Shown here: positions 17,801-32,394 of the stretch, in pieces
Layout of the letters: each line of letters starts with the position of its first letter
Numbering within the stretch: the stretch's first letter is position 1
From: a virus
Lineage: Duplodnaviria > Caudoviricetes
Strand: one strand, 5' to 3'
IMG/VR virus record: IMGVR_UViG_3300037484_000435
Span: 256,001-320,000 of that record
DNA: 64,000 nt
The notes under the pieces: generated by a model
Database searches by the model: none
What the model was told of the DNA's origin: nothing
What the model saw: the letters and a program-made list of their open reading frames with translations, nothing else
Made by a program: the position numbers and the translations under genes

Positions 17801-20800
17801 ACAACCACTAACCATTAAAGTCAAGTAGTCGGCTTGCGGAATACTTTGTAACTGGGTGGATGTCATTCTATTAGACCCTGCTGAAAAAGCATGCCACAAT
17901 GCCTTTCTGGCATTATTCTCGTCCGCAGTTCGCCAAAACTCTCTGTAGTATTTCCATACCCCACCGTCGTTCTTCGCTATCGTTTTCCAATGGTCCTGCT
18001 CATAGATCGACCAAGTCAAGCCACCGTCAAATGAGAGGGAATAATAAGCAGTAGAATTTTCACGCATGTGCTCGTTAGGAAGCACTTGGTGCACCTTATC
18101 AAAGAATATTGTAGAGTTCACTATGGCTGGGAATAAGCCGGGGGAAGTTCTGTGCTCACAAAAATCCAACTCGCAAATATGAGTGGATTCTGTACCGACA
18201 GGGGAACACATTTTGTTGTAGACATAAGGTTTTACCCAGACGTCATAAACTAGCAATCTGTAATAACGATAAAGCTCTAAAGTAGGATAATCAAACCAAT
18301 CTCCCACCGCACACGTTCCTGGGATTTGTCTATCTGGAGGATACTGGGAGGGGGCAAACAAATCAGGGTCATAATCAATAACTTGTTCTAGAGTTACCCA
18401 ACTAGATTCAACGTCTGGAGTATTCGATGCTTGGAATTTCCAACTCTTTGGTTTAGAACACGCGGGGTCCGGACACCCATAAGTGCCGCACAATACTGTT
18501 TGAACCCACATCCTATACTTACTGAATACTTTGGGACTCCCCAAATCAAACCCAAATTTCACAGGCATAGGACCACGATAGCATAAATCAATCCACGGAC
18601 ATTCATCTTTGATTAAACACTCCCATGGCTGAGACATACGGCGATCGAAGAATTTAGCTGTGCCTTCCCAACCAGTCCAGTCACCTTCGAATTCTGGGTC
18701 TTGTGCTTCACATACCACGAAGAAACTCCCAGCCCATTTCTCTGACGATCTAGTAACATACGCCCGCCCAGGGTCATCTAACTCATACCCAAGATTCATA
18801 AATCCCAAAATTGAGGTTCTGGATTTAAATACTAAATTGCCAGAAGAAAAGTCGGGCATACTAGACTCATACTCTGGGGTAATAGAGGGACCGGGAGTAC
18901 TGCTTAAATAACCTGACTCGTCATAAAGAACATCATATATGGATGTTATTTCTGTGTTCTCTTCTATAATGGAAAGTTCAACACTTCCGTAACCTTTACC
19001 ATAGCTATTGTAATCAATTATGTAACCTGTGTGCCCGTTGAGAAAATTAATCTGAGTATACGCAACAACATCACGAGCATCTTGTTTGGCACCATAATCA
19101 TCTATCTGAGGTCCAATAGATATAATCTTTCGAATCTTCGCTGATGGTGTAAAAGTCTCTTCATCATAAATACCCCACACCACTACTATATGTGCCGTAC
19201 TAAAAGTTAACACAATATACTGGCCATCGTAAAATTCGGTACCCTCAACTGTAATATAATCCCCCGGAACTAAGCCGTGATTGGTACAACGAAACCCAAT
19301 AACATTCGCGTCATACATGATGGCCTCTTGCCCGTCATCAAAGTCCACCTCTGGCCCCTCAAAATGCCCGTAATGTTGTGACTTCTCAATTACTAAATTA
19401 TCTATCAAGTCTATATCGGTGGGGGTTATATTCTGGAGATTAACGCCGGTAACAATACCATCATTTTTCCACCTAACAATAGGTCCTTTTATATTCCTTT
19501 GTTCAAAAGAAGAATTAGTCTGAAAGTCTAAAGTTACTACAGTGGACGTCGCGGGCATATAAGACATATTACGAATGACAATATCTTCATCCGTACTCTG
19601 CAGGGTAACTCGAATACCATCGTTGGTAGAGGTTACCTCGGTTCCAGGTATAAGTTGTCTAATTGCGTAACCTTGCTTATTCGTAATAGGGTCTGGTGTA
19701 CCGACACCTGCCCACACCTCGTCTTGAATCCATGTGCCCGAGATTGTTTGACCAACATCTAACAGGATTGGGTCTCCCTCAAAGTGTCCGCATTTACCTA
19801 TATCTGAAACCCAATGGCGTATATCTCCCCTTACAGCATGGTCTTGTACATGGTCTGAATCAAAAAGTGTGGAAGAAACAGTAATGTTTATCGGAGCAAT
19901 AGACACGTGTGAAAGAGAGACGGGTCCGTCCTGTGCCCCAGAAAGAGTTAGACTAACATGGCTTGTTTCTGGTAAACCAGAAGGTTGTCTAATAATCTGT
20001 CTAATAGATTGATTTGTTAAATCTCTGCTTTCTGGCAAACTTATTTCAGGAGTAGTGTGATAATCGGCTGATACTAAATTAACCGTCTCAGCAGTCAACA
20101 GAGGAATAGGTTCGGACTCAAAGTAGCCGATATTTCCTTCTAGTTGCTCCCAATAAGCAATTACACCTTTTACATCTTCCCGTTCTATTCGTGCTACATC
20201 ATCAAAGTAAACTGTATGAGGAATCTGCTCTTTTGTGAAACTAGGAAAAGTTATTGCTTCTACATATTCTATTTTTTCTAGATTTATGTAATTAGCCCAC
20301 CCTGCTAAAATATCAAACAAATAATAACGGTAACGCTGGTCATTGTAAAAAGTAAACCAAATAGACCAGACACCATCAAAATTGGGAGCACCCAACCAGT
20401 ATTGATCATTTCTTATATCCAAATCAACCCAATTAATATTATCATTACTGGCCCGCAATACCCAACTTCGAATAGGACGGTTGGGATTCCACCAAGTTTT
20501 ATATCTATACTTATTAATACACTTAGGGTTATTTACTCCACAATCTACTTTAATCCACCCAGTGTAGTCTTGGGGATCCCACCCAGCTGGCATTGCTGGT
20601 TGACTAAAAATCTGATAGTCTAAGGAATGATTCCTACTAGTGCTTACTACATAAGGTGCAGGAGCAGTGTTACTAGTCATAGTAGGAACCGCTCTAGTAG
20701 TGCTGGTATTCTTTGACCCGTCTCCCATAAAAACACCAGTGACAGTAGTTAATAAATAGGTAGGCTGTTCAATTGCAAGGCCCGTAAGAAGATAGTTAGT

Positions 20801-21052: not shown

Positions 21053-21080
21053 CCATTCCTGCCATTACCTTTCCATAAAG

Positions 21081-21776
21081 TTATCCACTAAAATCAATGT
21101 TGTTAGTAATACACATCAGGGCCCACTTAATGGCGTCATCCACTGAGACATGGGCCGACGCTGGGCCATGGAGTTCTCCTGAAGCGGTGGTTGCTAAGTC
21201 ATAAGAATTAGGATAACCAGTTGTAAAACCGAGTGTCTCAGCACCAGTACCACCTGTAACTTTCGCACTAGATGTGTCACCCCAACTACTTGAGTTAAAA
21301 GACTTCTTAGTAGAACCTGACAGAATAAGAAATTTTCCATCCTCATACTTTACTTGAGCGTTTCGATAACTCAATATATTAGAAGCAGTAGATTTTACAC
21401 CAGATGCAGTTAGCTGTAATTGTGTTTGTAGGTTATCAGCCAAAATACTACCAGCAAAAGTACCGGTGGCCGTAGTCAATGTGACGGCCCCAGAATCTGC
21501 CTCATCTAGAGCAACCGTTAAGGTGTACCCCGAAACAGTAACGGGGGAGTTCACAGAAAAGGACTGTGCCCATCCACGCCTCATATCCGAAATAAATATC
21601 GGAGGTACTGCTGTTCTTGCTGTCACATTAGAATATACTGTTGAGGCAGCATACACATAGAGGATGTATCTTTCATCCCCATCTTCCCCCGCAGGTACAC
21701 GTGAAACTATATCTACATATACAGTTTTGGTATTGCTGGGGTAATTATCATCATATACAGTTACATTGTAAGCCAT
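21081..21776 (-). CDS. Hypothetical virion structural protein (231 aa, Thr/Ser/Ala-rich, beta-strand-like)
   Basis: Track ORF with a GGAGA RBS, tightly packed in the operon. No recognisable family. Confidence 0.7.
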   Translation of the reverse strand: MAYNVTVYDDNYPSNTKTVYVDIVSRVPAGEDGDERYILYVYAASTVYSNVTARTAVPPIFISDMRRGWAQSFSVNSPVTVSGYTLTVALDEADSGAVTLTTATGTFAGSILADNLQTQLQLTASGVKSTASNILSYRNAQVKYEDGKFLILSGSTKKSFNSSSWGDTSSAKVTGGTGAETLGFTTGYPNSYDLATTASGELHGPASAHVSVDDAIKWALMCITNNIDFSG

Positions 21777-21777
21777 A

Positions 21778-22140
21778 TTAAGTCTCCCTATATTTCATTC
21801 CACTAACTACTGTGGTAAAATAATAGCAGTTTGGATCTTCGCATTGCCAACCGGGTGGATTCGCAGCTTGTATAAGCCGACCACTAGTTGTGGTATGTAA
21901 CGAACATGGATAACTGCTGTAATCTAGTCCAAAAAAGGACCGATCAGTAGAATTCCCAGCCACGAAAATGCCCTCTATATAGGTAGCTTGTCCTGCGGAC
22001 ATGCCAGTATAGAGGCGACCTTCGTACTTGTACTTATCCCTATACTCAGAACTATACGGGCAAAGTTTATAAGAATAACCCCGTTTCCGCTTGTCTTCCC
22101 CCAAGTCATCATAAAAGGGGTAATGCCTAGCCCAACTCAT
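21778..22140 (-). CDS. Hypothetical protein (120 aa, Tyr-rich, possible Cys/His metal site)
   Basis: Track ORF with an AAGGA RBS. Contains LCPY, PCSLH and QCEDPNC. Confidence 0.65.
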   Translation of the reverse strand: MSWARHYPFYDDLGEDKRKRGYSYKLCPYSSEYRDKYKYEGRLYTGMSAGQATYIEGIFVAGNSTDRSFFGLDYSSYPCSLHTTTSGRLIQAANPPGWQCEDPNCYYFTTVVSGMKYRET

Positions 22141-22150
22141 AAACTATCCT

Positions 22151-22381
22151 TTAGGGTTCGGGTATCGCAGATTTGCTAATTCTCAGCCCAATTTTGGTCT
22201 GAGAGTTCCAAGGATTCAGATTAGGGTCAATAACCTCACCAGTTATAAGACTGATATACTCAAGTGTAATACCTGACCCATTAATAACTGGAATTTGACC
22301 ATTAACAAAGAAGAAGCCTGTATCTTCATTCTTCGAGGTCCTAGACCCTCCCAGTCCTGTTTGCCCTATTGCGTCTAACAT
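22151..22381 (-). CDS. Small hypothetical protein (76 aa), tandem paralog B
   Basis: GGGGAG RBS. Shares GQTGLGGSRTSKNE and NPWNSQTKIGL with the adjacent 72-aa ORF. Confidence 0.85.
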   Translation of the reverse strand: MLDAIGQTGLGGSRTSKNEDTGFFFVNGQIPVINGSGITLEYISLITGEVIDPNLNPWNSQTKIGLRISKSAIPEP

Positions 22382-22417
22382 TTATGTCTCCCCCTACGAT
22401 CATTGTAGTTACGTGAT

Positions 22418-22636
22418 TTATTCAACGCTAATCTTCAAGCCAATCTTGGTCTGTGAGTTCCAAGGATTCAGCATAGGATCGATTACCATCCCCGTAACCA
22501 AATCATAATACTCAATTGCTATGCCACTACCGGCAAGAATTGGAATATTGCCATTCAAATAGAAATGGCCCTTAACTTCGTTCTTTGAGGTCCTAGACCC
22601 GCCAAGACCCGTTTGTCCAGTTGCATCTAATGCCAT
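22418..22636 (-). CDS. Small hypothetical protein (72 aa), tandem paralog A
   Basis: AGGAG RBS. Shares GQTGLGGSRTSKNE and NPWNSQTKIGL with the adjacent 76-aa ORF. Confidence 0.85.
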   Translation of the reverse strand: MALDATGQTGLGGSRTSKNEVKGHFYLNGNIPILAGSGIAIEYYDLVTGMVIDPMLNPWNSQTKIGLKISVE

Positions 22637-22648
22637 TGTAGACTCCTC

Positions 22649-23062
22649 CTAATTAATTATGTCCTCTGGGTTTAGAACCCATGCCGGATAAACCAGCATT
22701 TTGTGGTGTATTCGTTCGTCGTGCCCCGAACAATCTATTAAAAACCGTAGCCCATTTTTAAGCTCTTTCAATGAACCAGATTTATTGTGTAACAAAACAC
22801 ACCCTTTTAAAATAACATCATCGTCTTTATACTCAACCTCTTTCCACTGTAACCTAGCAATATAAAAATTACTAGGTAAAAATAATTTAGTGCCTAGATT
22901 TTGTCGAGTAAAATCCAAATCCATATAAGTATCTGGATTAATCTTCGCAGCAATCTTCAAAACTGGCCCACTAAACCAAGCCTTCTTAAAAGTTGCTACG
23001 TCCCCGTTATACTTTAAACCCTTCCACTGTAAGAACAGTTGATATATTTCCTTAACTTGCAT
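22649..23062 (-). CDS. Hypothetical basic protein (137 aa)
   Basis: Strong RBS (CAGGAGGGGT-ATG) and co-oriented in the operon. No recognisable motif. Confidence 0.75.
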   Translation of the reverse strand: MQVKEIYQLFLQWKGLKYNGDVATFKKAWFSGPVLKIAAKINPDTYMDLDFTRQNLGTKLFLPSNFYIARLQWKEVEYKDDDVILKGCVLLHNKSGSLKELKNGLRFLIDCSGHDERIHHKMLVYPAWVLNPEDIIN

Positions 23063-23087
23063 ACCCCTCCTGTTGTGTTAAACCACC

Positions 23088-23819
23088 TTACGAAGGTAGA
23101 TAAATAGGTTGCAACGTGATTGTCACACTAGCACTTGCTTTAACACCGGGGGCCCAAAACCTACTGTGCCCCACATAAGAGAAGTTACCAAAATAAGTGG
23201 TATCGTATTCTCCAATAGAAAGTGCTTGTGCTTGTACATTTCCTTTTTCACCCTCAGTTGTTATACTATCGAGTGCTATAATCGCCCCCGTAGTAGTTTC
23301 TAAATTTGCTTGAGTATCATCCCCCACCAAGGTGCCTTCAGCAGTTCCCATGGCTAAAACACTGGGGAGAGGTTCAGCATACACTTTTCCACTATAACCC
23401 GCCACGTCCGCCAATAAATAGGAATTGCCCTGCCAAGTTTCCACCCCTTGGTTAGTACGATCCTTTGTATAACTATAACTGGTCACATAAAACTCACTGC
23501 TAAAAGGCTCAATAGTAGCTGAGGTTCCACATATAGCAGGAGTGATATTTATAATACCTTTAGCAGGAGACTCGGGGCACGGTTCGGCCTGGGATATCGT
23601 AATTTCTAATGAAATAGATGGTGTGATATCCCCATATACAGAAAAACTAACCGTGTTCTGGGCTGGAATTATTGCCGCGTAAGGGCTCCTTGACCCCAAG
23701 GTCCACAACTTATTCGGTTGTCCTCCTTTCGACCAATCTACAGATGTAATACCCTCATTCACTGGGGAGCCCGCCAAAGTAACAGAAACAACGCTCGCAT
23801 TTCCTATTATTACCGCCAT
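23088..23819 (-). CDS. Tail tube-fold-like structural protein (243 aa; possible tube initiator/baseplate component)
   Basis: Its ATG overlaps the endonuclease stop (TAATG). ITSVDWS...LWTLGSRSP...VSFSVY and FYVTSYSYT...VETWQG resemble the strand pattern of tail-tube family proteins (by eye). Confidence 0.55.
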   Translation of the reverse strand: MAVIIGNASVVSVTLAGSPVNEGITSVDWSKGGQPNKLWTLGSRSPYAAIIPAQNTVSFSVYGDITPSISLEITISQAEPCPESPAKGIINITPAICGTSATIEPFSSEFYVTSYSYTKDRTNQGVETWQGNSYLLADVAGYSGKVYAEPLPSVLAMGTAEGTLVGDDTQANLETTTGAIIALDSITTEGEKGNVQAQALSIGEYDTTYFGNFSYVGHSRFWAPGVKASASVTITLQPIYLPS

Positions 23820-24646
23820 TATAGTAGTCCCCCCTTAAGAAACTTTTCATTTTTACGTTCTAAAAATATTGTCGCATCCTTATATAACCATTGGCCAAAT
23901 TTTTGTAATTGCTTTACCCCTGTAAGCCCCCAATTACTGTAAGTTTCTTTTGGTGTAGTTATATAACCACCGACCCCAAGAATAGAAGAAATATTATACT
24001 TAAGCCATTGACAAAAAGATAATTTCCCAGTTATTTGTGCTTGAACTTTTTTTCCCTTAACACAAATACACCCATCTCCATCAAAAACACCCCGTATATA
24101 ATGATGAAAAAATTCACTAGAAACATCTCTTGGAAATATATCACTATAGGTTTTTCTAGGAACAATTCCATGACTGACTAAATCGTTAAACATTTTACTA
24201 GAATGAAAACTAATAACTACTCGGTCTAGGGTTGTATCGCGTATTGGTTTAGTCATCTGGGTTTCTTTACACAACAGTTCTAATATTTTTTTGTCTTTCT
24301 TATTAATCATAATCTGCATAACATATTTATTAGGAATATAATTATGGATACAACCATCAGCATAAATAAAACCTAAGAAATAAGCCTTTGCTTCGGTATC
24401 AATACGGTTGAAAAAATCCTCATCAAAAGTATACAATTTTTTTGGACGTAAATTTTTAGAACCATTTCTTATACGCATACTATCTATAAACTCTTGGGTT
24501 TTTAACAGGCCCATCTTAAATCCCATAGTATTAACGGATATTACTGTCCTTCCCAAAGCTTTGGCAATGTCTTCATTATAGTGTGTGGAAAACATATCAA
24601 CCAGAGTATATTTCTCTTCTTGTGTCCACAATTTACCGCCTGCCAT
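23819..24646 (-). CDS. Free-standing LAGLIDADG homing endonuclease 4 (275 aa, one N-terminal HTH-like repeat)
   Basis: Two LAGLIDADG helices, AYFLGFIYADGCI and YIRGVFDGDGCI. N-terminal WTQEE...LGRT...MGL repeat. GGAGG RBS. Confidence 0.9.
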   Translation of the reverse strand: MAGGKLWTQEEKYTLVDMFSTHYNEDIAKALGRTVISVNTMGFKMGLLKTQEFIDSMRIRNGSKNLRPKKLYTFDEDFFNRIDTEAKAYFLGFIYADGCIHNYIPNKYVMQIMINKKDKKILELLCKETQMTKPIRDTTLDRVVISFHSSKMFNDLVSHGIVPRKTYSDIFPRDVSSEFFHHYIRGVFDGDGCICVKGKKVQAQITGKLSFCQWLKYNISSILGVGGYITTPKETYSNWGLTGVKQLQKFGQWLYKDATIFLERKNEKFLKGGLL

Positions 24647-24716
24647 TACATAATTCCTCCAACTAGTATACTGCTTTAATCAACAGGTTACTTAATTTGT
24701 GTGTCCCAACAACTGA

Positions 24717-24974
24717 CTAGACCCTCTTACCTATAGCTACTGCTGTAACTTTGTACTCGTTGTAGTCTGTTTCACTCGCAGGTGCTAGACTTTGTTCTAG
24801 TATGTACCCTTTGAAATGAATGCCCCCAGCCGTAAGTTCTAAACCAGGACCACCGGGAGAATAGGGTGCCCCAGTACCAACCTTAGAGTAAACTGTCATT
24901 GAAATGTTTGCTAATCCATTACTCTGGTAAGAAATACTAAGAGTAGAACAATCAAGAAACGATTCGTCGGCCAT
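24717..24974 (-). CDS. Small hypothetical structural protein (85 aa)
   Basis: Its ATG overlaps the stop of endonuclease 3 (TAATG). Beta-strand-like pattern (LSISY, ISMTVY, FKGYIL, YKVTAVA). Confidence 0.7.
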   Translation of the reverse strand: MADESFLDCSTLSISYQSNGLANISMTVYSKVGTGAPYSPGGPGLELTAGGIHFKGYILEQSLAPASETDYNEYKVTAVAIGKRV

Positions 24975-25900
24975 TAGATTAACTCCGCTAGGTAAAATTT
25001 TTCATATTTCCTCAACAGAAAAAATCCACTACTTGAGTAAAGCCATCTAGCAAAATCTTTTAATTGGTTTCTGCCTCGAAGTTCCCACCTATAGTGGTTC
25101 CGAACTTTATAGATATTTCCCGAGATGTCTATACTCTCTTTCAAAGTTTTCTTTACCCATTCACAAGTATTTTGATGGCCGACAATTGCCACTGTAGACT
25201 GCCCTATATTTTGGTGTATATAAACACATCCATCCGAATCAAATAACCCCCTTAACAGGTCACGTTTATACTGTGTATCTGGGATTGTCATATTATGGGT
25301 TTTATTTGTAACAACACCACACTTAATTAAATCAGCCATAAGGAGTTCTGAGTGCAATACCAATTCGACATAATTTTTTCGAGAGCAATATATTCTTCCA
25401 GAAAAGGACATAATATTTTTTGTAAAATCTAATAATTCAATATCCCGCTTGTGCAATAAAATTCTTAATGATTGGTTCTTATAATTACAACCGTCACCTA
25501 GAATAAAACCTAGTAAATACGCCCTGTTCTCCGTATTTATTTCTCTGAAAAAATTTTGGTCAAACGTGTTCTTTCGCCGTATTGCACTTACAATCTGAAA
25601 AGTAGTTTTTGGGTCTCTCTTAATTCCGAGACGTTGGGCCTTATCTTTGATCGACGGCCAATGTCGGGGACTAAAAATTTCTATTAGATCCGCTCTACTT
25701 TTAAATGGGTACATCTTATACAACAATGAAACTTCATCTTGAGTCCACGCAACCTGTTCGGATTGGGGACGTAAACCAAGCACACCTAATTTATTACTAA
25801 CAGCCCTCTTAGATTTTCCAAGATACTCTGATAAGTAATTACGAGTATGAAAAAGGTAATTATCTGATAACCACGTTATTTCTTTATCTGCCCACTTCAT
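24974..25900 (-). CDS. Free-standing LAGLIDADG homing endonuclease 3 (308 aa, two N-terminal HTH-like repeats)
   Basis: AYLLGFILGDGCN and LLRGLFDSDGCV. N-terminal WADKE and WTQDE repeats. GGAGA RBS. Confidence 0.9.
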   Translation of the reverse strand: MKWADKEITWLSDNYLFHTRNYLSEYLGKSKRAVSNKLGVLGLRPQSEQVAWTQDEVSLLYKMYPFKSRADLIEIFSPRHWPSIKDKAQRLGIKRDPKTTFQIVSAIRRKNTFDQNFFREINTENRAYLLGFILGDGCNYKNQSLRILLHKRDIELLDFTKNIMSFSGRIYCSRKNYVELVLHSELLMADLIKCGVVTNKTHNMTIPDTQYKRDLLRGLFDSDGCVYIHQNIGQSTVAIVGHQNTCEWVKKTLKESIDISGNIYKVRNHYRWELRGRNQLKDFARWLYSSSGFFLLRKYEKFYLAELI

Positions 25901-25912
25901 AAAATTTCTCCA

Positions 25913-26266
25913 TTAAAAACTAAAATCCTTTACTCCAGGAATTTCGTCCTCATCGACGAAAGTTGGTATCTTTCTCTCTTGGCCTGTAAAAACTATGTTA
26001 CCTTCCGCATCTACGTATTGCGAGGCGTTATACTGTGCAGTCTCAAAACTGGCTTCAGGGTTCAACCCTATAAAATCTTCCGACTCCAATAGTTGAGACG
26101 TAGCCCTATAATTCCTTGTAACTCTTACTTCCCCACCAAAAGACTGCAGGATATAATTAATAGACCCCTTAGCCATAGTACAGGGACAACTATTACAGAC
26201 AGGAGCAGGAGCCCCAGCACGTAATTTATAACTCACACCAGCTATACAAGATTCTAAATTAGCCAT
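25913..26266 (-). CDS. Small hypothetical protein (117 aa, CxxCxC motif)
   Basis: Its ATG overlaps the stop of endonuclease 2 (TAATG). Contains VCNSCPC. Confidence 0.7.
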   Translation of the reverse strand: MANLESCIAGVSYKLRAGAPAPVCNSCPCTMAKGSINYILQSFGGEVRVTRNYRATSQLLESEDFIGLNPEASFETAQYNASQYVDAEGNIVFTGQERKIPTFVDEDEIPGVKDFSF

Positions 26267-27246
26267 TATATTAACCCCAATTCCGTAAATTTATTATGTT
26301 TTCTAAATAAATAGAAAGTTGCATCTTTATATAACCATTGAGCAAGTTTGGAGAGCTGATGCTTACCACTTAAAACCCAATAATTTGTATTTGAGTTTTT
26401 CTTAACATAAACACCACCACCAACCTCAAGATGTTTTTTCGTAATATACAGAGCCCACTCGCACGTCTTTAAAGACCCAGCAGCAATGCACGCGTGACCA
26501 GTGAACAGCCCTTGGTTAGACACCTTGCCAGTTATACATCCATCTCCATCAAATAGTCCTCTAAAAAAGTGCCGAATAAGAACATCAGGTAACTCAGGTA
26601 AATCGAGATCTAGGTAAGTCTTATTTGGTACAATGTTATACTTAGATAAGTCGTTGACTATCTTTCTTGAAGATACACATAATGTATATGTATTTTGACA
26701 CGAATTCTCAATTAGGTGTGTCAACTTATACACAGACTGCAACTCTTCTTGCAAAGAATCAAGAATATGTTTATCCCTCTCAATTAATTTAAGCATAACA
26801 TTTTTTCTGTGTCTAGGAATCCCACCATCCGCCCACAATAAGCCAAGAAAGTAAGCCTTTCCCTCAGTATCAATTGTTCTAAAATAATTTTCATTGTCAA
26901 TCTTCCTTGTAAGAGATTTACTAATTGACTCATTAATAACACTCTGACACTGTGAAAGCCCTAGACATCTTGCCTTCGTCTTTATTGCTGCCTTCGAGTG
27001 GCCACACATTCTTTCTAAATCACTTAGCGAAGTTGTAGTATATAGTCTAAATAAAAGGTCCACCTCTTTATCAGTCCAAAATTTTCCCTTTGGTCGGTTA
27101 AATTTACATAACCCTAATCTATTTGCTTTTTCCCTGATTGTCTTTGCTTCTCTTCCTAATACCTTAGAGATCTCTTCATTACTTACATCGGAGTAAAGAA
27201 CCTTTAATGTTATAATTTCATCGTCAGACCATCTTAAACCACCCAT
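26266..27246 (-). CDS. Free-standing LAGLIDADG homing endonuclease 2 (326 aa, two N-terminal HTH-like repeats)
   Basis: AYFLGLLWADGGI and FFRGLFDGDGCI. N-terminal WSDDE and WTDKE repeats. AGGAG RBS. Confidence 0.9.
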   Translation of the reverse strand: MGGLRWSDDEIITLKVLYSDVSNEEISKVLGREAKTIREKANRLGLCKFNRPKGKFWTDKEVDLLFRLYTTTSLSDLERMCGHSKAAIKTKARCLGLSQCQSVINESISKSLTRKIDNENYFRTIDTEGKAYFLGLLWADGGIPRHRKNVMLKLIERDKHILDSLQEELQSVYKLTHLIENSCQNTYTLCVSSRKIVNDLSKYNIVPNKTYLDLDLPELPDVLIRHFFRGLFDGDGCITGKVSNQGLFTGHACIAAGSLKTCEWALYITKKHLEVGGGVYVKKNSNTNYWVLSGKHQLSKLAQWLYKDATFYLFRKHNKFTELGLI

Positions 27247-27257
27247 CTACTTTTCTC

Positions 27258-27980
27258 CTAACACGTTCCAGGACATATAGAAAAAGGTGTCTCCATACTA
27301 TAAGTAATAGTGGGAGCTTGGGGACTATTATAAGAAAGAGTAAACCCAGTCAAATAGGCATCTACATTGCTAAAACCGCCACAACCAGCCTGTGCTGTGA
27401 CACTCAGTTTAAATGTTGTATCTATTTCGTCTGTATCAAAATTAATTGGCCCGCCAGTATACTTCAAATGATTGTATTGAGTTGTAACTTGTGCCTTATA
27501 GGCAGCAAACTGATTAGCTTGAATATTAAATTTTGGTGCTGAAACCCCGCAGCCATCAACTATGAATTTTGAGTTTCCTTCGAGATCACCAGTAACAGTC
27601 ACCTGCTTCTTTTTCAGCGGGATCATAACCCAACGCCCCTTCTTTTTACCGAGACCACCATCAGCTAGGAGGCAGTCAGAATCAAGCCTACAGTCATAAA
27701 TTAGTTTCCAAGGCACATTTAGAGACAAGTTAACATCACATATCAACCCACACGTATAATCTTCTGGCGGTACAAACGGATAAGCCGTAATCTGTATTGT
27801 AGTTTTTCCAGGACCATACAAGTACAACCATTCATTAGGCAAAGGTATACAGTCGTTTGATTTGGGCTCCCTCTGTATATCAGGGGCGGTATCAACGGAA
27901 ATACTATTTACTCTGCCGCTAATATCCTCATTATTAACAAGAATTCTAACCGCGGTGGTATTACAACAAGGACACGCCAT
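27258..27980 (-). CDS. Cys-rich tail tube-fold-like structural protein (240 aa)
   Basis: 12 Cys counted. VNSISVD...GKTTIQITAY and AYLTGFTLSY...TITYSM parallel the strand pattern of the 243-aa protein. The GGAGG RBS lies inside the last codons of endonuclease 1. Confidence 0.55.
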   Translation of the reverse strand: MACPCCNTTAVRILVNNEDISGRVNSISVDTAPDIQREPKSNDCIPLPNEWLYLYGPGKTTIQITAYPFVPPEDYTCGLICDVNLSLNVPWKLIYDCRLDSDCLLADGGLGKKKGRWVMIPLKKKQVTVTGDLEGNSKFIVDGCGVSAPKFNIQANQFAAYKAQVTTQYNHLKYTGGPINFDTDEIDTTFKLSVTAQAGCGGFSNVDAYLTGFTLSYNSPQAPTITYSMETPFSICPGTC

Positions 27981-27984
27981 TTAG

Positions 27985-28797
27985 TTATTCCTCCAATAAA
28001 CCTGCTTCAACAAACTTATCATACTTCCTTGATAGAAAAAAGGGAGCATCTTGATAGAGCCATTGAGCGAATTTCGAAACCTTGGTTCTGCCTTGTAACT
28101 CGTAGATGGAAGAGCCATCATATTTGTGAACCATTTGACAGACACCAGCTTGTCTGGTAACTACTTCACTAACTGCCCAGAGAGCGTCACCGTTTCCCCT
28201 TATATTACACCTAGCTTTGTTAAATCCTAGGCTAACAGACCCATCAGCATCAAACAACCCTCTAATTAAGTGAGAGTATAAATCCTCTCTAATTTCAGGT
28301 ATCTTTAATATGTGTGCTTTCTTGGGAACCATTCCCCATTTAGCCAAATCATTAATCAATTTATAAGAAGAGATACGAAGCACAATCATTTCTTTGCGAC
28401 TTTGAGAGTTTCGTGCTATAGGAGAACTTGATTTCAATTGTTCTTTTATATAGTCGAGAACTTCTTGGTCTCTCTCGTGAATATGTATCGTAAGTCTAAA
28501 AAAGTCTTTGTCCACGTTTCCGTCCCCCAACAAAAATCCTAATATATATGCTTTGTCTGGAGCATCAATACTCTCGAAGTAACTTTCGTCAACTGTGTAT
28601 TTCCGTAAAGCATCACTGTTTATTCTCCGAAGGGACTCTTTCTCTTTGACAAGACCCAGTCGATTTGCTTTACGCCTTACAGACTGTCTAGTTCTACCTA
28701 ATAAGTCGGATAAATAAACATTACTATGAAAAGGGTATATCTTTTTTAATTGTTGCTCATCTTCTTCTGTCCATAAATTACTTGAAGTTTTTATCAT
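27985..28797 (-). CDS. Free-standing LAGLIDADG homing endonuclease 1 (270 aa, one N-terminal HTH-like repeat)
   Basis: AYILGFLLGDGNV and LIRGLFDADGSV. N-terminal WTEED...LGRT...KANRLGL repeat. GAGG RBS. Confidence 0.9.
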   Translation of the reverse strand: MIKTSSNLWTEEDEQQLKKIYPFHSNVYLSDLLGRTRQSVRRKANRLGLVKEKESLRRINSDALRKYTVDESYFESIDAPDKAYILGFLLGDGNVDKDFFRLTIHIHERDQEVLDYIKEQLKSSSPIARNSQSRKEMIVLRISSYKLINDLAKWGMVPKKAHILKIPEIREDLYSHLIRGLFDADGSVSLGFNKARCNIRGNGDALWAVSEVVTRQAGVCQMVHKYDGSSIYELQGRTKVSKFAQWLYQDAPFFLSRKYDKFVEAGLLEE

Positions 28798-28814
28798 AGA
28801 TACCTCTTTTTATT

Positions 28815-29879
28815 TTAAATTTGGAACACGTCGTATGAACCCACAGCAGGGCCCCCGCGGGCGATGTCGCGGTGATCGTGGGGCGGTATGATGTCAAATT
28901 TTATTGAACAAGTTTGCCCTGTTCTCGGATGTACAAATGTCACCTGTGCCGGATAGTCACCTGTAATGGTAAACTCATACCCTTTAGCACTGGGGTCCGC
29001 AGGAGTTCCTATATTAACTGAAACCGGAAATGCCTTTTCTCCTACAGTCATACCAGATTTCTTATTTCCACGCGAGCCGGAAAAAGACTTAGGTGCTGGA
29101 TTACAATGGCAACAACAAGCAGCCATAGCCTCACACTGTGCTACATCTATAAGTCTCCCACTCTCTACTTCCATAATCTGCACAAATATACGCATCCCCG
29201 CACTGACCCAAGCAGAGGGAGGTTCCATCCGCAAAGGAACCTTAGAGGCATCACTTTCACGGCCAGAAGAACTTGGTGCAGGACTGCCTTTAGGAGACTT
29301 TCCCTGCGGGTCTGGTGTTTTTATAAGGGGGCTGTGTTCACTTCCTAAGGAAGACCCAGAACTCACATCAGAAATCCCTTTTTTACCAGCAGCAACTTTA
29401 TGGGCCCGCGTCATTTCACCCGCTTGTCTGCGGTGACCAGTCGTAATGACAGCAAAAGCATCCTCAGTCATTTTAAAACGTCTAGTAAACTTAGGGCCAA
29501 CACGCATCTTTACAAAAACATCTTCCGCCACGTAATCGATCAGAATCCTACGAGAGTCACTCCAATGTGGGCGGGTTTTCATACCAGTAACATACCCAGT
29601 AAACAGGGTGGGCAAATTACCTAAATCTGTACCCACACCAGCCTTTACTTCAATCTTATCTCCTAGGTTGTTGTTAATCGCTACATTTCCACTCATGAAC
29701 TTAGGGTCAATCCAAGCGGAAAGGGAGCAACTAAGTTGGGCAGTGGGACTTGTTCTATTTCTAGTGATAGAGAAAGTCATTATATCCCCAGAGGACGACT
29801 CCATCCTACTAGGAGTGCTGAATACATATGCCCCTATCTGAATAACCGCCGATACTTTTTCTAGGTCTAACGTAGCCAT
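28815..29879 (-). CDS. Baseplate/tail hub-like protein (354 aa)
   Basis: IEVKAGVG...LFTGYVTG...IDYVAED resembles the N-terminal motif of gpD/gp27/Mu gp44-type hub proteins. It is the second gene after the TMP. Also contains CCCHC and a C-terminal HDH. Confidence 0.55.
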   Translation of the reverse strand: MATLDLEKVSAVIQIGAYVFSTPSRMESSSGDIMTFSITRNRTSPTAQLSCSLSAWIDPKFMSGNVAINNNLGDKIEVKAGVGTDLGNLPTLFTGYVTGMKTRPHWSDSRRILIDYVAEDVFVKMRVGPKFTRRFKMTEDAFAVITTGHRRQAGEMTRAHKVAAGKKGISDVSSGSSLGSEHSPLIKTPDPQGKSPKGSPAPSSSGRESDASKVPLRMEPPSAWVSAGMRIFVQIMEVESGRLIDVAQCEAMAACCCHCNPAPKSFSGSRGNKKSGMTVGEKAFPVSVNIGTPADPSAKGYEFTITGDYPAQVTFVHPRTGQTCSIKFDIIPPHDHRDIARGGPAVGSYDVFQI

Positions 29880-29884
29880 ATACC

Positions 29885-29892
29885 CCTCCTTA
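29885..29892 (-). promoter_or_regulatory. Full-consensus Shine-Dalgarno (TAAGGAGG) that overlaps the stop codon of the 832-aa gene
   Basis: The minus strand reads ATT-TAAGGAGG-GGT-ATGGCT, indicating bacterial-type translational coupling. Confidence 0.75.
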
Positions 29893-32388
29893 AATCTCCA
29901 TTGGATTATTATACAATTGGACTTTTACTTTATCGCCTACTTCCCACGGCCAAGGTTGTACATTCCATGCATTAACAATACCTATCCCTTGCACCTTTAC
30001 TTTAAACAAACTCCCGTAATCATGGCTAACGATACGCCCATCAACCTCTTCTGTTTTAGCCCGTTTACTTTTCAACCCGCCAGCGGATGCTTGATTAATC
30101 GTTATCGGCCCCACCTCAACCGTCATATTAAAAACTGAACTGTCTGTGTACTGAAAAGTAATAATGTTGATGGTGCGGGGGCCATAAGGAGTAGTAACTG
30201 TTTTGCCTAAAGAAGGTACCTCTTCTTGTGTCCTAGGAGGACCACATACATAGGTCATATGTCTATTAGGCTCGTCACGAAAACTATCAAAGTAGCCAAA
30301 TAAGTTTCTAGCAATCTCGTGACAAGTATTCCCTATACTGTCAAAAGAAGCACGCAGGTTAGCTGGATCCACTCCGTCTCCACCACCTCCACCGGTCGAA
30401 AAACTCGGGAAAAGAAACGGTAAGCTCAATTCAAGGTTAACTCCTGTAGATGCTTCTTGCAATTTTTCTGTATCCCCGACTCTATTTTCTACAGTACAAT
30501 ACATATTATCCCACACGTCAGTGTCTGGGTCGACAACCTTGTCAAACCCAGTGTTACCGCACGCAGCTACAGGGGGAGGCATATCAACTAAATAGATAGG
30601 CATAACTCTAACTTTTATTCCAGACAGGAAGGATTCTACATCTCTTCCTTTTCCCTGCACTATTAATCCTGGACGGGAAAGATTCAATTTAGCCCACCAA
30701 GTATCCACCGTAAACATACTATCACCACTAAGACCAAATAAATACCCAGGACGCTTTAAAGACAACTCGTTAACGATCCACGCATAATTACCATATCCTG
30801 CCATAGACCCCAACCCATTGGCCCAACTGTGTGAAACCCGCTTCATCATAAGGAACGCCCAGTGGTTTAACCATTCTACAGAATCTCCACCACATGCAGT
30901 AGAGTCTGGGCCCCAACCCCAAATTCTTCCACCAAACCCAAAACCATCTTCCATTGTACAGTAAGTACCGCAGTTCGGGGCCTGGGCACGTATAGCATAG
31001 CTTATTCTGCCCTCTGCCGATACACTCCCAGCTGGTATTTCCACGTAGCTGGAGTGGGGGATATCGAAAGTCTGTGATTCCTTTTGTATGCCAATAAAGA
31101 TAGGAGTAGTCGGACCTATACTAATGTTACGTGCCCGAAATTTCTCAAAACCCATTAGAGCAGCACCATTTCCAACCATTGCTGATGTGGATTCATACAT
31201 ATTATCCTCTTGGCTGTCGTAACAAATATTTGAACCAACATCCCATTTACTTATGTCAGAAAAATCAATCTGCGAGATAAGGCTCCCATAACCAAAAAAA
31301 GAAGGTATTGTATGTTCTGACCATTGAATACTAGGCTTCTTTTTGGCATCATCAGAGGCTTTACTGACACTCTCACAACTATCACTAGTAGAGGAGGAAT
31401 CTAAGCTACCCATATCCAGTAGAAGAGAGGGAGTGCTTCCAGGACCAGTGTGACAACTAGGACCAAAATAACTTTCTAGACCGTTACCCCCTCCCACCGA
31501 TAGTAAGGCAGGGAACTCCGAACTTTTAACAAACTGTATATTGTAATGACGTAATAAATTGTCATCCTCCGTACCAAAGTCTACGTCCGTCATCCAGAAT
31601 AATATACTCATATGGGGACCGACCTCAAATAAATCATTAATACCGTCCCTATAACCACCCTTTTTTTCGTACTCTGGATAAATAATTCCACCATGTTGAC
31701 TAAAAATACCATGGGAACATGTAGGGTCATCCCCGGGGTTATTTCCCTCGGAACTTACTTGGCCCCAAGTGAACTTAGTTCCCTGAACAGGCGGGGCAAA
31801 CCTACTGCTCTCGATACTCATATTCTTAGCACCCATATTTGGAACCAAATGGTTCATCAGAGGGCCAGACAAATCTGCAATCTTGATTATCGACCCCGCA
31901 CCTCCATCAATTATCTGCATCCAGTCACCGCATTGACGAAAGGGAGGGGGATCAGCAGCTCGAACCACCACCATATCAACAAGAGAATTAAACTGAACAC
32001 TGGGTAAACAATACTGTACATGAGCCAAAGTAAATATATCAGAGGAGGAACTACTACCCTGCAAGACTTTTTGAAAACGAGCGAACCCAAATTCATCCGC
32101 AAAACATTCCCAATATTCCCCGTCCAACAATTTAGCGGAAAGGGACATACGTATACAGGCATAGGGGTCTTGATTGAGTATGTCGAGGGGACAGCAAGAA
32201 GAATACTCATTCTCAGGAACGGTACCTCGGATAGGTATATCATATTTCTCTAACACCTTACGTGCTAAATTGTTACCTTGTTTACGGCACTCTGCTGTAG
32301 TTTTGTCCCACGCAGGTTGAGCACAGGGGTCCCCATAACGTAATTTACCTTCGTCCTTTAATAATCGTCCTTGTGCAGATAATGTCAT
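29890..32388 (-). CDS. Tail tip/baseplate hub-like protein (832 aa, Cys-rich) with a possible C-terminal OB-fold
   Basis: First gene after the TMP. About 19 Cys. The C-terminal VDGRIVSHDYGSLFKVKV...WEVGDKVKVQLY is OB-fold-like. ECFADEFGFARF and PSLGKTV...INIITFQY...MTVEVG are hub-like segments (by eye). Confidence 0.55.
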   Translation of the reverse strand: MTLSAQGRLLKDEGKLRYGDPCAQPAWDKTTAECRKQGNNLARKVLEKYDIPIRGTVPENEYSSCCPLDILNQDPYACIRMSLSAKLLDGEYWECFADEFGFARFQKVLQGSSSSSDIFTLAHVQYCLPSVQFNSLVDMVVVRAADPPPFRQCGDWMQIIDGGAGSIIKIADLSGPLMNHLVPNMGAKNMSIESSRFAPPVQGTKFTWGQVSSEGNNPGDDPTCSHGIFSQHGGIIYPEYEKKGGYRDGINDLFEVGPHMSILFWMTDVDFGTEDDNLLRHYNIQFVKSSEFPALLSVGGGNGLESYFGPSCHTGPGSTPSLLLDMGSLDSSSTSDSCESVSKASDDAKKKPSIQWSEHTIPSFFGYGSLISQIDFSDISKWDVGSNICYDSQEDNMYESTSAMVGNGAALMGFEKFRARNISIGPTTPIFIGIQKESQTFDIPHSSYVEIPAGSVSAEGRISYAIRAQAPNCGTYCTMEDGFGFGGRIWGWGPDSTACGGDSVEWLNHWAFLMMKRVSHSWANGLGSMAGYGNYAWIVNELSLKRPGYLFGLSGDSMFTVDTWWAKLNLSRPGLIVQGKGRDVESFLSGIKVRVMPIYLVDMPPPVAACGNTGFDKVVDPDTDVWDNMYCTVENRVGDTEKLQEASTGVNLELSLPFLFPSFSTGGGGGDGVDPANLRASFDSIGNTCHEIARNLFGYFDSFRDEPNRHMTYVCGPPRTQEEVPSLGKTVTTPYGPRTINIITFQYTDSSVFNMTVEVGPITINQASAGGLKSKRAKTEEVDGRIVSHDYGSLFKVKVQGIGIVNAWNVQPWPWEVGDKVKVQLYNNPMEI

Positions 32389-32394
32389 TCGTTA

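What the first reader, a model, noticed from the sequence alone, without database searches (positions are those of the whole stretch)
23088..28797. Four paralogous LAGLIDADG endonuclease genes strictly alternate with four structural genes in the tail operon
Seen: the order is 354 aa, HE1, 240 aa, HE2, 117 aa, HE3, 85 aa, HE4, 243 aa. All four share one architecture (W[ST]xxE helical repeat(s), two LAGLIDADG helices with acidic residues intact, and a C-terminal LY..(A/S)...L.RK..KF), yet they are clearly divergent. None occurs elsewhere in the 64 kb. Established: free-standing homing endonucleases are common in phages but are usually scattered near replication and nucleotide-metabolism genes. 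Inference: either one family serially invaded every junction of a conserved baseplate cassette, giving gene drive or exclusion against co-infecting relatives, or the genes were domesticated as DNA-binding regulators, as happened with the LAGLIDADG-derived WhiA.
Basis: partly seen in the sequence, partly recalled or inferred. Interest (0 to 1): 0.8.

Follow-up and report, generated by a model that had tools for sequence, protein, structure and literature searches.

The report
Homing endonuclease genes between tail genes
Four intact selfish DNA-cutting genes (LAGLIDADG homing endonucleases) sit in the gaps between five tail-tip genes of a 545-kb phage, and related phages have the same gaps empty, filled or holding a decayed copy, so this is a dense example of a known kind of mobile gene rather than a new system.

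Summary
On the minus strand the order is 354 aa, HE1 (270), 240, HE2 (326), 117, HE3 (308), 85, HE4 (275), 243 aa, tightly packed just after the giant tape-measure gene. All four inserts are double-motif LAGLIDADG enzymes. They keep both catalytic aspartates and carry 1-2 N-terminal helix-turn-helix repeats.

They are not special to this spot. The 545-kb genome holds about 31 paralogs.

Twelve related phage contigs carry the same cassette with 0 to 3 occupied gaps:
- one has no insert at all;
- one has a frameshifted HE1 pseudogene;
- one has a copy in a gap that is empty here.

Each of the four has a closer relative in another phage's cassette than among its three neighbours (AU test p = 5e-32). 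The HE1 tree conflicts with the neighbouring-gene tree (p = 0.006).

I found no intron, no intein and no split host gene.

Best reading (0.85): free-standing homing endonuclease genes that repeatedly invade, persist in, decay in and are lost from the short spacers of a conserved operon. Nothing supports domestication as regulators. Homing endonuclease clusters in phage tail operons are already published.

Other agents of this scan noted the same family in other windows of this genome.

Interest is moderate to low.

The parts
29890..32388 (-). 832-aa conserved gene directly after the tape-measure gene; used as the anchor to find related phages
   Evidence: 21 homologs at 34-100% identity; anchor tree; no Pfam hit
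28815..29879 (-). 354-aa cassette gene 1 (probable tail-tip/baseplate protein); its invariant 3' end borders junction J1
   Evidence: Orthologs of 353-366 aa in the related contigs where this position was read. The last 25 residues are invariant in 5 sequences. Weak Atlas lead to baseplate hub gp41/gpD (score 0.83). AlphaFold2 model failed.
27985..28797 (-). HE1, LAGLIDADG homing endonuclease at junction J1, one N-terminal HTH repeat
   Evidence: Pfam LAGLIDADG_3 36.3 bits; phrog_4645 E 1.4e-44. Intact J1 orthologs at 61-83% identity in 8 relatives plus a pseudogene in L034. J1 clade support 100/97.
27258..27980 (-). 240-aa cassette gene 2
   Evidence: Orthologs of 237-258 aa in relatives; no family hit
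26266..27246 (-). HE2, LAGLIDADG homing endonuclease at junction J2, two N-terminal HTH repeats; its stop overlaps the start of the 117-aa gene (TAATG)
   Evidence: Pfam LAGLIDADG_3 29.4 bits and sub-threshold GcrA/Myb-like hits; phrog_4645 E 5.5e-46. Sister to P0143, which sits at J2 of L034 (53% identity, support 100/100).
25913..26266 (-). 117-aa cassette gene 3
   Evidence: Orthologs of 113-120 aa in relatives
24974..25900 (-). HE3, LAGLIDADG homing endonuclease at junction J3, two N-terminal HTH repeats; its stop overlaps the start of the 85-aa gene
   Evidence: Pfam LAGLIDADG_3 32.9 bits; phrog_4645 E 1.3e-42. Sister to P0144, which sits at J3 of another contig (support 97/94). Only 33-36% identical to the J3 occupants of L032 and L033.
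24717..24974 (-). 85-aa cassette gene 4
   Evidence: Orthologs of 83-100 aa in relatives
24647..24716 (-). Native 70-nt spacer of junction J4 with a conserved motif, a small hairpin and the Shine-Dalgarno site now used by HE4
   Evidence: Conserved in 6 loci whether or not a homing endonuclease is present; 5-bp hairpin with one compensatory pair; the motif is unique in the genome
23819..24646 (-). HE4, LAGLIDADG homing endonuclease at junction J4, one N-terminal HTH repeat. It sits between the native Shine-Dalgarno site and the start codon of the 243-aa gene, and its stop overlaps that start.
   Evidence: phrog_4645 E 1e-52. Pfam hits lie just below the cut-offs. Both catalytic Asp are present. 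It groups with the J3 copy of L033 and the J2 copy of L035 (support 97/85).
23088..23819 (-). 243-aa cassette gene 5 (possibly tail-tube-like)
   Evidence: Orthologs at 40-87% identity. Atlas feature hits to tail tube / baseplate tube clusters score 0.91-0.94 and are a lead only. AlphaFold2 model failed.
22649..23062 (-). 137-aa gene. The junction before it (J5) is empty here but holds a 268-aa LAGLIDADG gene in one relative.
   Evidence: P0005 contig gene list

Best explanation
The four genes are free-standing, selfish LAGLIDADG homing endonuclease genes. They occupy the 9-70-nt spacers between five conserved genes that follow the tape-measure gene of a 545-kb uncultured phage.

Inferred mechanism: during co-infection with a related phage whose junction is empty, each enzyme cuts a long target. 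That target probably spans, or lies next to, the conserved 3' end of the upstream gene, the Shine-Dalgarno spacer and the 5' end of the downstream gene. Repair from the endonuclease-bearing genome copies the gene, and some flanking sequence, into the break.

In its own genome each insert is harmless. It is read with the operon. It has its own or a borrowed ribosome-binding site, and its 3' end abuts or overlaps the next start codon (TAATG in three of four cases), so the downstream gene is still translated.

The four are distinct old lineages of one cassette-associated subfamily. They are gained, kept, degraded and lost independently at each junction. This genome happens to have four junctions filled at once.

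Shown here: identity, intactness, polymorphic occupancy, a pseudogene in a relative, and tree conflict with the flanking gene. Inferred: cleavage, the target position and homing itself.
For: Identity:
- Pfam, PHROG and PDB profile matches to LAGLIDADG enzymes.
- Both catalytic Asp are kept in all four and in nearly all cassette relatives.

Polymorphic occupancy in 12 related cassettes found through the 832-aa anchor or the endonucleases themselves:
- L030: no insert.
- P0002 contig: J1 only.
- P0005 contig: J1 and J5.
- P0004 contig: J1, then the contig ends.
- P0006 contig: J1, J3 and J4.
- L032: J1 and J3.
- L033: J1 and J3.
- P0011 contig: J1.
- P0016 contig (same cassette as L035): J2.
- L034: J1 pseudogene, J2 and J3.
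- P0144 contig: J3 only.
- L030, L032 and L034 are sister phages by the anchor tree yet differ in content.

Decay: the J1 copy in L034 has several frameshifts and in-frame stops but is still 54-80% identical to HE1 in its pieces.

Lineages:
- In the careful tree each window copy pairs with a copy from another phage's cassette.
- The four as one clade are rejected (p-AU 5e-32).
- The J3 occupants of the window, L032 and L033 are only 33-37% identical.

Horizontal movement:
- The HE1 tree conflicts with the anchor tree (p-AU 0.006).
- HE1 is 61-64% identical where the anchor is 45-52% identical.
- HE1 is 80% identical in DNA to the L034 pseudogene, against 69-70% for the two flanking genes.
- Synonymous divergence (dS) is measurable only for HE1 while most flanking genes are saturated, and HE1 dN/dS is about 0.11.

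Not an intron or intein:
- No Rfam hit at E <= 1.
- The five host genes are separate ORFs, each with its own Shine-Dalgarno site, in the endonuclease-free L030.

Not an assembly artefact: contigs 95-99% alike from two other studies bridge HE4/J4/85-aa gene and HE1/354-aa gene.

Genome-wide expansion: about 31 paralogs, mostly on the same strand as their neighbours and abutting the downstream gene.
Against: - No cleavage, target site or homing event has been observed. The phage is uncultured.
- All related sequences are metagenome contigs, some at low coverage (L034 about 4x), so some of the frameshifts in its pseudogene could be assembly errors.
- The divergence between relatives (about 70-80% DNA identity) is too large to see co-conversion tracts.
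- The group used for the AU test on HE1 was named after the tree had been seen.
- HE1 is present, intact or decayed, in 9 of the 12 relatives and is under purifying selection. That would also fit a copy that benefits the phage.
Confidence: 0.85

Rival explanations
1. The endonucleases are still nucleases but are kept because they help the phage. They would cut the tail-tip cassette of co-infecting relatives (interference competition, marker exclusion). Because there is one at each junction, they would drive piecewise exchange of the cassette genes, as in the published 'HEG island' idea. This overlaps the best explanation and differs only in who benefits.
For: HE1 occupies J1, intact or decayed, in 9 of 12 relatives. 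It is more conserved than its flanks at large distances and has dN/dS of about 0.11. Relative similarity changes gene by gene among L030, L032 and L034, for example in the 240-aa, 72-aa and 231-aa genes, which suggests recombination inside the cassette. Published work describes homing endonuclease genes bracketing tail operons at boundaries of exchange (PMC10448857).
Against: Mosaic genes are not confined to endonuclease-flanked positions. One relative lacks all the endonucleases and another carries a decayed copy, so none of them is required. No competition data are possible for an uncultured phage.
Confidence: 0.3
2. The four proteins are domesticated LAGLIDADG-derived DNA-binding regulators, like WhiA, that control expression of the tail-tip operon.
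For: N-terminal HTH repeats with weak GcrA/Myb-like and 'transcriptional regulator' hits. One copy stands before each gene. HE1 is under purifying selection.
Against: The catalytic Asp of both motifs is retained in all four. Established knowledge of WhiA, not tested here, is that its LAGLIDADG domains lack the acidic catalytic residues. Presence at each junction is sporadic among close relatives, and one relative has none. There is a pseudogene in L034. Different lineages occupy the same junction. The same family occurs about 31 times next to unrelated genes in this genome.
Confidence: 0.04
3. The endonuclease genes lie inside group I introns or inteins that split one or a few larger tail genes.
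For: The nearest relatives in cultured phages include intron-encoded enzymes of Staphylococcus myoviruses such as I-MsaII.
Against: There is no Rfam intron match at E <= 1 in 21000-33000. The spaces around the endonuclease ORFs are -1 to 17 nt, apart from the native 70-nt J4 spacer, which is too short for a ribozyme. The flanking ORFs are complete, separately initiated genes in the endonuclease-free relative L030. The endonuclease ORFs are not in frame with their neighbours as an intein would be.
Confidence: 0.01

Closest known systems
HEG islands in ICP1-like and other phages (Barth, Dunham and Seed 2023, PMC10448857)
   Same: Free-standing homing endonuclease genes cluster next to essential operons, including tail genes. 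Cognate positions in related phages hold homologs, dissimilar members of the same class, or nothing. This matches what is seen at J1-J5 here.
   Different: Those are mainly T5orf172/GIY-YIG and HNH enzymes that bracket a gene block. Here a single LAGLIDADG subfamily fills four consecutive junctions inside the block, in a 545-kb phage.
Free-standing seg (GIY-YIG) and mob (HNH) endonuclease genes of phage T4 (textbook knowledge, not tested here)
   Same: Intergenic position, optional presence among relatives, and 'intronless homing' by cutting the endonuclease-free allele near the insertion point.
   Different: A different nuclease fold. T4 genes are scattered and mostly near nucleotide-metabolism and replication genes. 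About 31 copies of one family in a single genome goes beyond T4.
LAGLIDADG ('DOD') endonucleases of Staphylococcus Twort/K-like myoviruses, e.g. I-MsaII; PHROG 4645
   Same: Nearest homologs in cultured phages (30-35% identity over 70-91% of HE2). All four window proteins match the same PHROG family.
   Different: Several of those are annotated as intron-encoded within rec or polymerase genes. The copies here are free-standing between tail genes.
Pectobacterium phage CB7, 23 homing endonucleases covering about 7% of a 142-kb genome (PMC7344957)
   Same: A very high homing endonuclease load in one phage genome, mostly free-standing.
   Different: CB7's free-standing genes are HNH and its two LAGLIDADG domains sit in inteins. 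Here about 31 free-standing LAGLIDADG genes make up roughly 5% of the genome.
WhiA (LAGLIDADG-derived transcription factor of Gram-positive bacteria)
   Same: LAGLIDADG scaffold fused to an HTH domain.
   Different: WhiA has a C-terminal HTH, has lost its catalytic residues and is a conserved single-copy gene (established knowledge). Here the HTH repeats are N-terminal, the catalytic Asp are kept and presence is sporadic.

Membership tests
LAGLIDADG homing endonuclease, monomeric double-motif type | Two LAGLIDADG helices, each ending in a conserved acidic residue | tested here: met
   Motif 1 reads LG(F/L)..(G/A)DG and motif 2 reads RG(L/V)FD.DG in all four. D92 and D185 are invariant.
LAGLIDADG homing endonuclease, monomeric double-motif type | Significant match to curated family models | tested here: met
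   Pfam LAGLIDADG_3 is above its cut-off for HE1-3. HE4 is 0.6 bit below it. phrog_4645 E 1e-42 to 1e-52 for all four. The joint profile hits 2dch, I-DmoI and I-AniI.
LAGLIDADG homing endonuclease, monomeric double-motif type | Site-specific cleavage of a long (about 20 bp) target | not testable with these tools
   Needs expressed protein and endonuclease-free junction DNA.
LAGLIDADG homing endonuclease, monomeric double-motif type | The alpha-beta-beta-alpha-beta-beta-alpha fold, twice | not tested
Free-standing (intronless) homing endonuclease gene | Own ORF between complete genes, with no intron or intein | tested here: met
   No Rfam hit. The flanking genes are intact and separately initiated in the endonuclease-free L030.
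Free-standing (intronless) homing endonuclease gene | Sporadic presence or absence at the same site among related genomes | tested here: met
   0-3 occupied junctions in 12 relatives, one pseudogene.
Free-standing (intronless) homing endonuclease gene | Phylogeny not congruent with the host genome (horizontal spread) | tested here: met
   The AU test rejects the anchor-congruent HE1 grouping (p 0.006; the group was named after seeing the tree). HE1 is more similar than its flanks at large distances.
Free-standing (intronless) homing endonuclease gene | Cuts the endonuclease-free allele near the insertion site and is copied in by repair | not testable with these tools
   Inference only.
WhiA-like domesticated LAGLIDADG regulator | Loss of catalytic acidic residues | tested here: not met
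   Both Asp are retained in all four.
WhiA-like domesticated LAGLIDADG regulator | Stable, universal presence in related genomes | tested here: not met
   Junction occupancy varies. L030 has none.
Intron- or intein-encoded homing endonuclease | Embedded in a ribozyme or in frame within a host protein that is split at the DNA level | tested here: not met

The most novel reading that the evidence does not exclude
The cassette-associated LAGLIDADG subfamily, above all the nearly fixed and slowly evolving HE1 lineage at J1, is more than a parasite. It would be a multi-point drive that lets these megaphages push their own tail-tip genes, gene by gene, into co-infecting relatives. The endonucleases would then shape the exchange of this module, and possibly host range.
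Probability: 0.2. Interest if true: 0.55.

Novelty: new member of a known kind. Interest (0 to 1): 0.38.

Why it matters
This locus shows the stages of the homing endonuclease life cycle side by side. Empty, occupied, replaced and decaying alleles of five adjacent junctions are all found in related megaphages. It also shows that LAGLIDADG enzymes, usually tied to introns and inteins, can thrive as free-standing genes in phages: about 31 copies in one genome, and more than 40,000 sequence clusters in metagenomes.

For annotation, it explains why the tail-tip operon of this phage clade varies in length by up to about 4 kb without any change in its structural gene set.

The enzymes and their natural endonuclease-free target junctions are a ready set for finding new meganuclease specificities.

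It does not reveal a new mechanism.

Tried and rejected
- AlphaFold2 on the 243-aa and 354-aa genes, with 5-6-row alignments, gave unusable models (pLDDT 32 and 30). I ran no fold search, so the 'baseplate/tube' role rests on position and weak Atlas leads.
- PDB profile searches for those two genes found nothing meaningful.
- Pfam and PHROGs are silent on all non-endonuclease cassette genes.
- The search for related loci with single proteins and with the 354-aa alignment found nothing in viral contigs or metagenome contigs. A degenerate DNA pattern for the invariant C-terminus of the 354-aa gene also found nothing.
- The records behind L030, L032 and L033 are not held for the genome search, so I could not count the endonuclease load of those relatives outside the cassette.
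- blastn against deposited phage genomes gave only two trivial short hits.
- The sigma-70 promoter and terminator scan showed no excess over shuffles.
- No RNA holder was listed for the stretch.
- dN/dS: synonymous sites are saturated for nearly all flanking genes, so only rough values for HE1 could be obtained.
- Recent tandem duplication of the four was considered, because they form a clade among this genome's own paralogs (95/87). I rejected it once external homologs were added.
- Assembly chimera was rejected, because many independent contigs show the same kind of arrangement.
Full report
**Setting**

The window is bases 256001-320000 of a single 545,322-bp virus record that CheckV rates as complete. 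Earlier notes of this scan, which I did not re-test, identify the huge ORF at 32395-64000 as part of a 14,711-aa tape-measure protein. Downstream of it, all on the minus strand, lie in this order:
- an 832-aa gene;
- the cassette in question;
- five further small genes (137, 72, 76, 120 and 231 aa);
- a 5054-aa gene whose orthologs in relatives carry discoidin (F5/8 type C) domains.

**Observation**

The genes are tightly packed:
- The gaps before the endonuclease genes are 17, 11, 12 and 70 nt.
- After them the gap is 4 nt once, and three times the stop overlaps the next start codon (TAATG).

The LAGLIDADG assignment holds:
- Pfam LAGLIDADG_3 is above its cut-off for HE1-3 and 0.6 bit below it for HE4.
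- All four match phrog_4645 at E 1e-42 to 1e-52.
- The joint profile hits solved monomeric LAGLIDADG enzymes.
- Both motifs keep the catalytic Asp.

The N-terminal W(T/S)xxE modules occur once in HE1 and HE4 and twice in HE2 and HE3. They give only sub-threshold GcrA/Myb-like matches. The four are 32-40% identical to one another.

**The family is not confined to this spot**

A profile of the four finds 32 ORFs in the genome, that is about 31 genes, one of which is split in two. Most lie on the same strand as their neighbours and abut or overlap the next gene. Other first-stage readers noted the same family in other windows of this genome.

Placing the 32 ORFs at random among 769 crude genes gave strict four-fold alternation in 0.13% of shuffles. 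So the local density is unusual, though not by a very large margin.

**Related phages**

The 832-aa gene has 21 homologs in public metagenomes. I read ten of their contigs, plus two contigs found through the endonucleases themselves. All carry the same cassette in the same order, with different numbers of inserts.

The junctions are named as follows:

| Junction | Between genes |
|---|---|
| J1 | 354 aa and 240 aa |
| J2 | 240 aa and 117 aa |
| J3 | 117 aa and 85 aa |
| J4 | 85 aa and 243 aa |
| J5 | 243 aa and 137 aa |

Occupancy by contig:

| Contig | Occupied junctions |
|---|---|
| this window | J1, J2, J3, J4 |
| L030 | none |
| P0002 contig | J1 |
| P0005 contig | J1, J5 |
| P0004 contig | J1, then the contig ends |
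| P0006 contig | J1, J3, J4 |
| L032 | J1, J3 |
| L033 | J1, J3 |
| P0011 contig | J1 |
| P0016 contig (same cassette as L035) | J2 |
| L034 | J1 pseudogene, J2, J3 |
| P0144 contig | J3 only |

In L030 the five host genes are complete. They are separated by 9-12-nt spacers that are little more than a Shine-Dalgarno site, or by 65 nt at J4. This rules out split genes, introns and inteins. Rfam also finds nothing in 21000-33000 at E <= 1.

In L034 the 899 nt at J1 are a decayed HE1 ortholog. It has several frameshifts and in-frame stops, yet its pieces are 54-80% identical to HE1. That contig has only about 4x coverage, so part of the damage could be assembly error.

L030, L032 and L034 are sisters on the anchor tree, yet they have 0, 2 and 3 inserts.

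**Lineages**

Among this genome's own paralogs the four form a supported clade (95/87). With external homologs added, that picture changes (careful tree):
- HE1 sits inside a tight clade of J1 occupants (100/97).
- HE2 pairs with the J2 occupant of L034 (100/100, 53% identity).
- HE3 pairs with a J3 occupant from another contig (97/94).
- HE4 groups with the J3 occupant of L033 and the J2 occupant of L035 (97/85).

Holding the four together costs 246 log-likelihood units (p-AU 5e-32). The J3 occupants of the window, L032 and L033 are only 33-37% identical.

So the four are separate old lineages of one cassette-associated subfamily. Most are faithful to one junction, and at least one has changed junction.

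No other paralog from this genome falls inside that subfamily. In the quick tree it is a 61-row clade with SH-aLRT 95.

**Horizontal movement**

- The HE1 tree disagrees with the anchor tree. L033's copy nests among copies from phages much closer to the window, while L032's copy lies outside them. The anchor-like grouping is rejected (p-AU 0.006), with the caveat that I named the group after seeing the tree.
- HE1 identity is 61-64% where the anchor is 45-52% identical.
- HE1 and the L034 pseudogene are 80% identical in DNA, against 69-70% for the two flanking genes.
- Synonymous divergence can still be estimated for HE1 (about 2.0-2.6) while most flanking genes are saturated. HE1 dN/dS is about 0.11. 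These estimates are rough.

**How the inserts fit the operon**

This part comes from direct reading.
- HE1-3 bring modest ribosome-binding sites of their own.
- HE4 sits between the native Shine-Dalgarno site of the 243-aa gene and its start codon, so it uses that site.
- The last codons of each endonuclease gene are G-rich and end in, or just before, the next start codon. That should keep the downstream gene translated by coupling. This is inference.
- The flanks of J1 are very conserved: the last 25 residues of the 354-aa protein are invariant in five sequences. A conserved target there would explain why J1 is the junction most often filled. This too is inference.

**Independence from one assembly**

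Contigs from two other studies, 95-99% alike, bridge HE4/J4 spacer/85-aa gene and HE1/354-aa gene.

**Comparison with what is known**

- The family is very large: 40,097 50%-identity clusters at E <= 1e-3.
- Its nearest members in cultured phages are LAGLIDADG endonucleases of Staphylococcus myoviruses, some annotated as intron-encoded.
- Clusters of free-standing homing endonuclease genes at tail and other essential operons have been described, with cognate positions holding related, unrelated or no endonuclease genes in related phages (PMC10448857).
- High endonuclease loads are also known: 23 in phage CB7 (PMC7344957).
- Jumbo gut phages carry hundreds of HNH genes but few LAGLIDADG genes (PMC12880540).
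- I found no paper that describes a LAGLIDADG array of this kind.

**Verdict**

The selfish serial-invasion reading is supported. The domestication reading is not.

What is new is a matter of degree and enzyme family: one LAGLIDADG subfamily fills four consecutive junctions, and about 31 paralogs sit in one megaphage. The kind of system is already known.

The structural role of the five host genes remains an inference from position and synteny, because family searches and structure predictions failed.

Noticed in passing
window 24647-24716 (minus strand); L030:14921-14985, L032:16242-16357, L033:16663-16712, L034:10560-10624, L035:2471-2518: The spacer before the 243-aa gene holds a motif, TTA(A/G)GTAACCT, followed by a 5-bp hairpin. 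It is conserved across phages whose proteins are only 40-50% identical. It is the only long spacer in the cassette and occurs once in the 545-kb genome. It could be a locus-specific RNA or protein-binding element.
   Followed up: partly
L032:16300-16350: The J4 spacer of L032 carries an extra insert of about 50 nt with palindromic ends (AGATC...GATCT). It might be a footprint or a small mobile element at the junction that HE4 occupies in the window.
   Followed up: no
window 22151-22636 (minus strand): The 72-aa and 76-aa genes are tandem paralogs with the same length class and a shared GQTGLGGSRTSKNE...NPWNSQTKIGL core. L030 also has two copies, but L032, L033 and L034 have one.
   Followed up: no
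L034:6359-7257: This is a decayed HE1 ortholog with frameshifts and stops. The J3 copy of L034 also has a 13-residue insertion inside its second LAGLIDADG motif, and its J2 copy has FD changed to FA in that motif. L034 may therefore carry several degenerating copies, or it may be a low-coverage (4x) assembly.
   Followed up: partly
P0022, P0025, P0029, P0032 compared with window 27985-28797: J1 orthologs that are 61-83% identical in the nuclease core range from 270 to 359 aa in this set, and to 367 aa in the P0005 contig. The difference comes from a varying number of N-terminal W(T/S)xxE HTH repeats, so the DNA-binding module is gained and lost quickly.
   Followed up: partly
genome C1:126850-207745, 333637-391480 and others: The other roughly 27 paralogs form clades that follow genome neighbourhood. 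The copies at 333-391 kb form one starred clade, and most copies at 126-208 kb form another group. This suggests spread mainly to nearby sites.
   Followed up: partly
window 5888-21052 (minus strand): This is a 5054-aa gene directly after the cassette. Its orthologs in relatives (3792-5242 aa) carry discoidin (F5/8 type C) or P-proprotein domains, so it is probably a giant fibre or adhesin.
   Followed up: no
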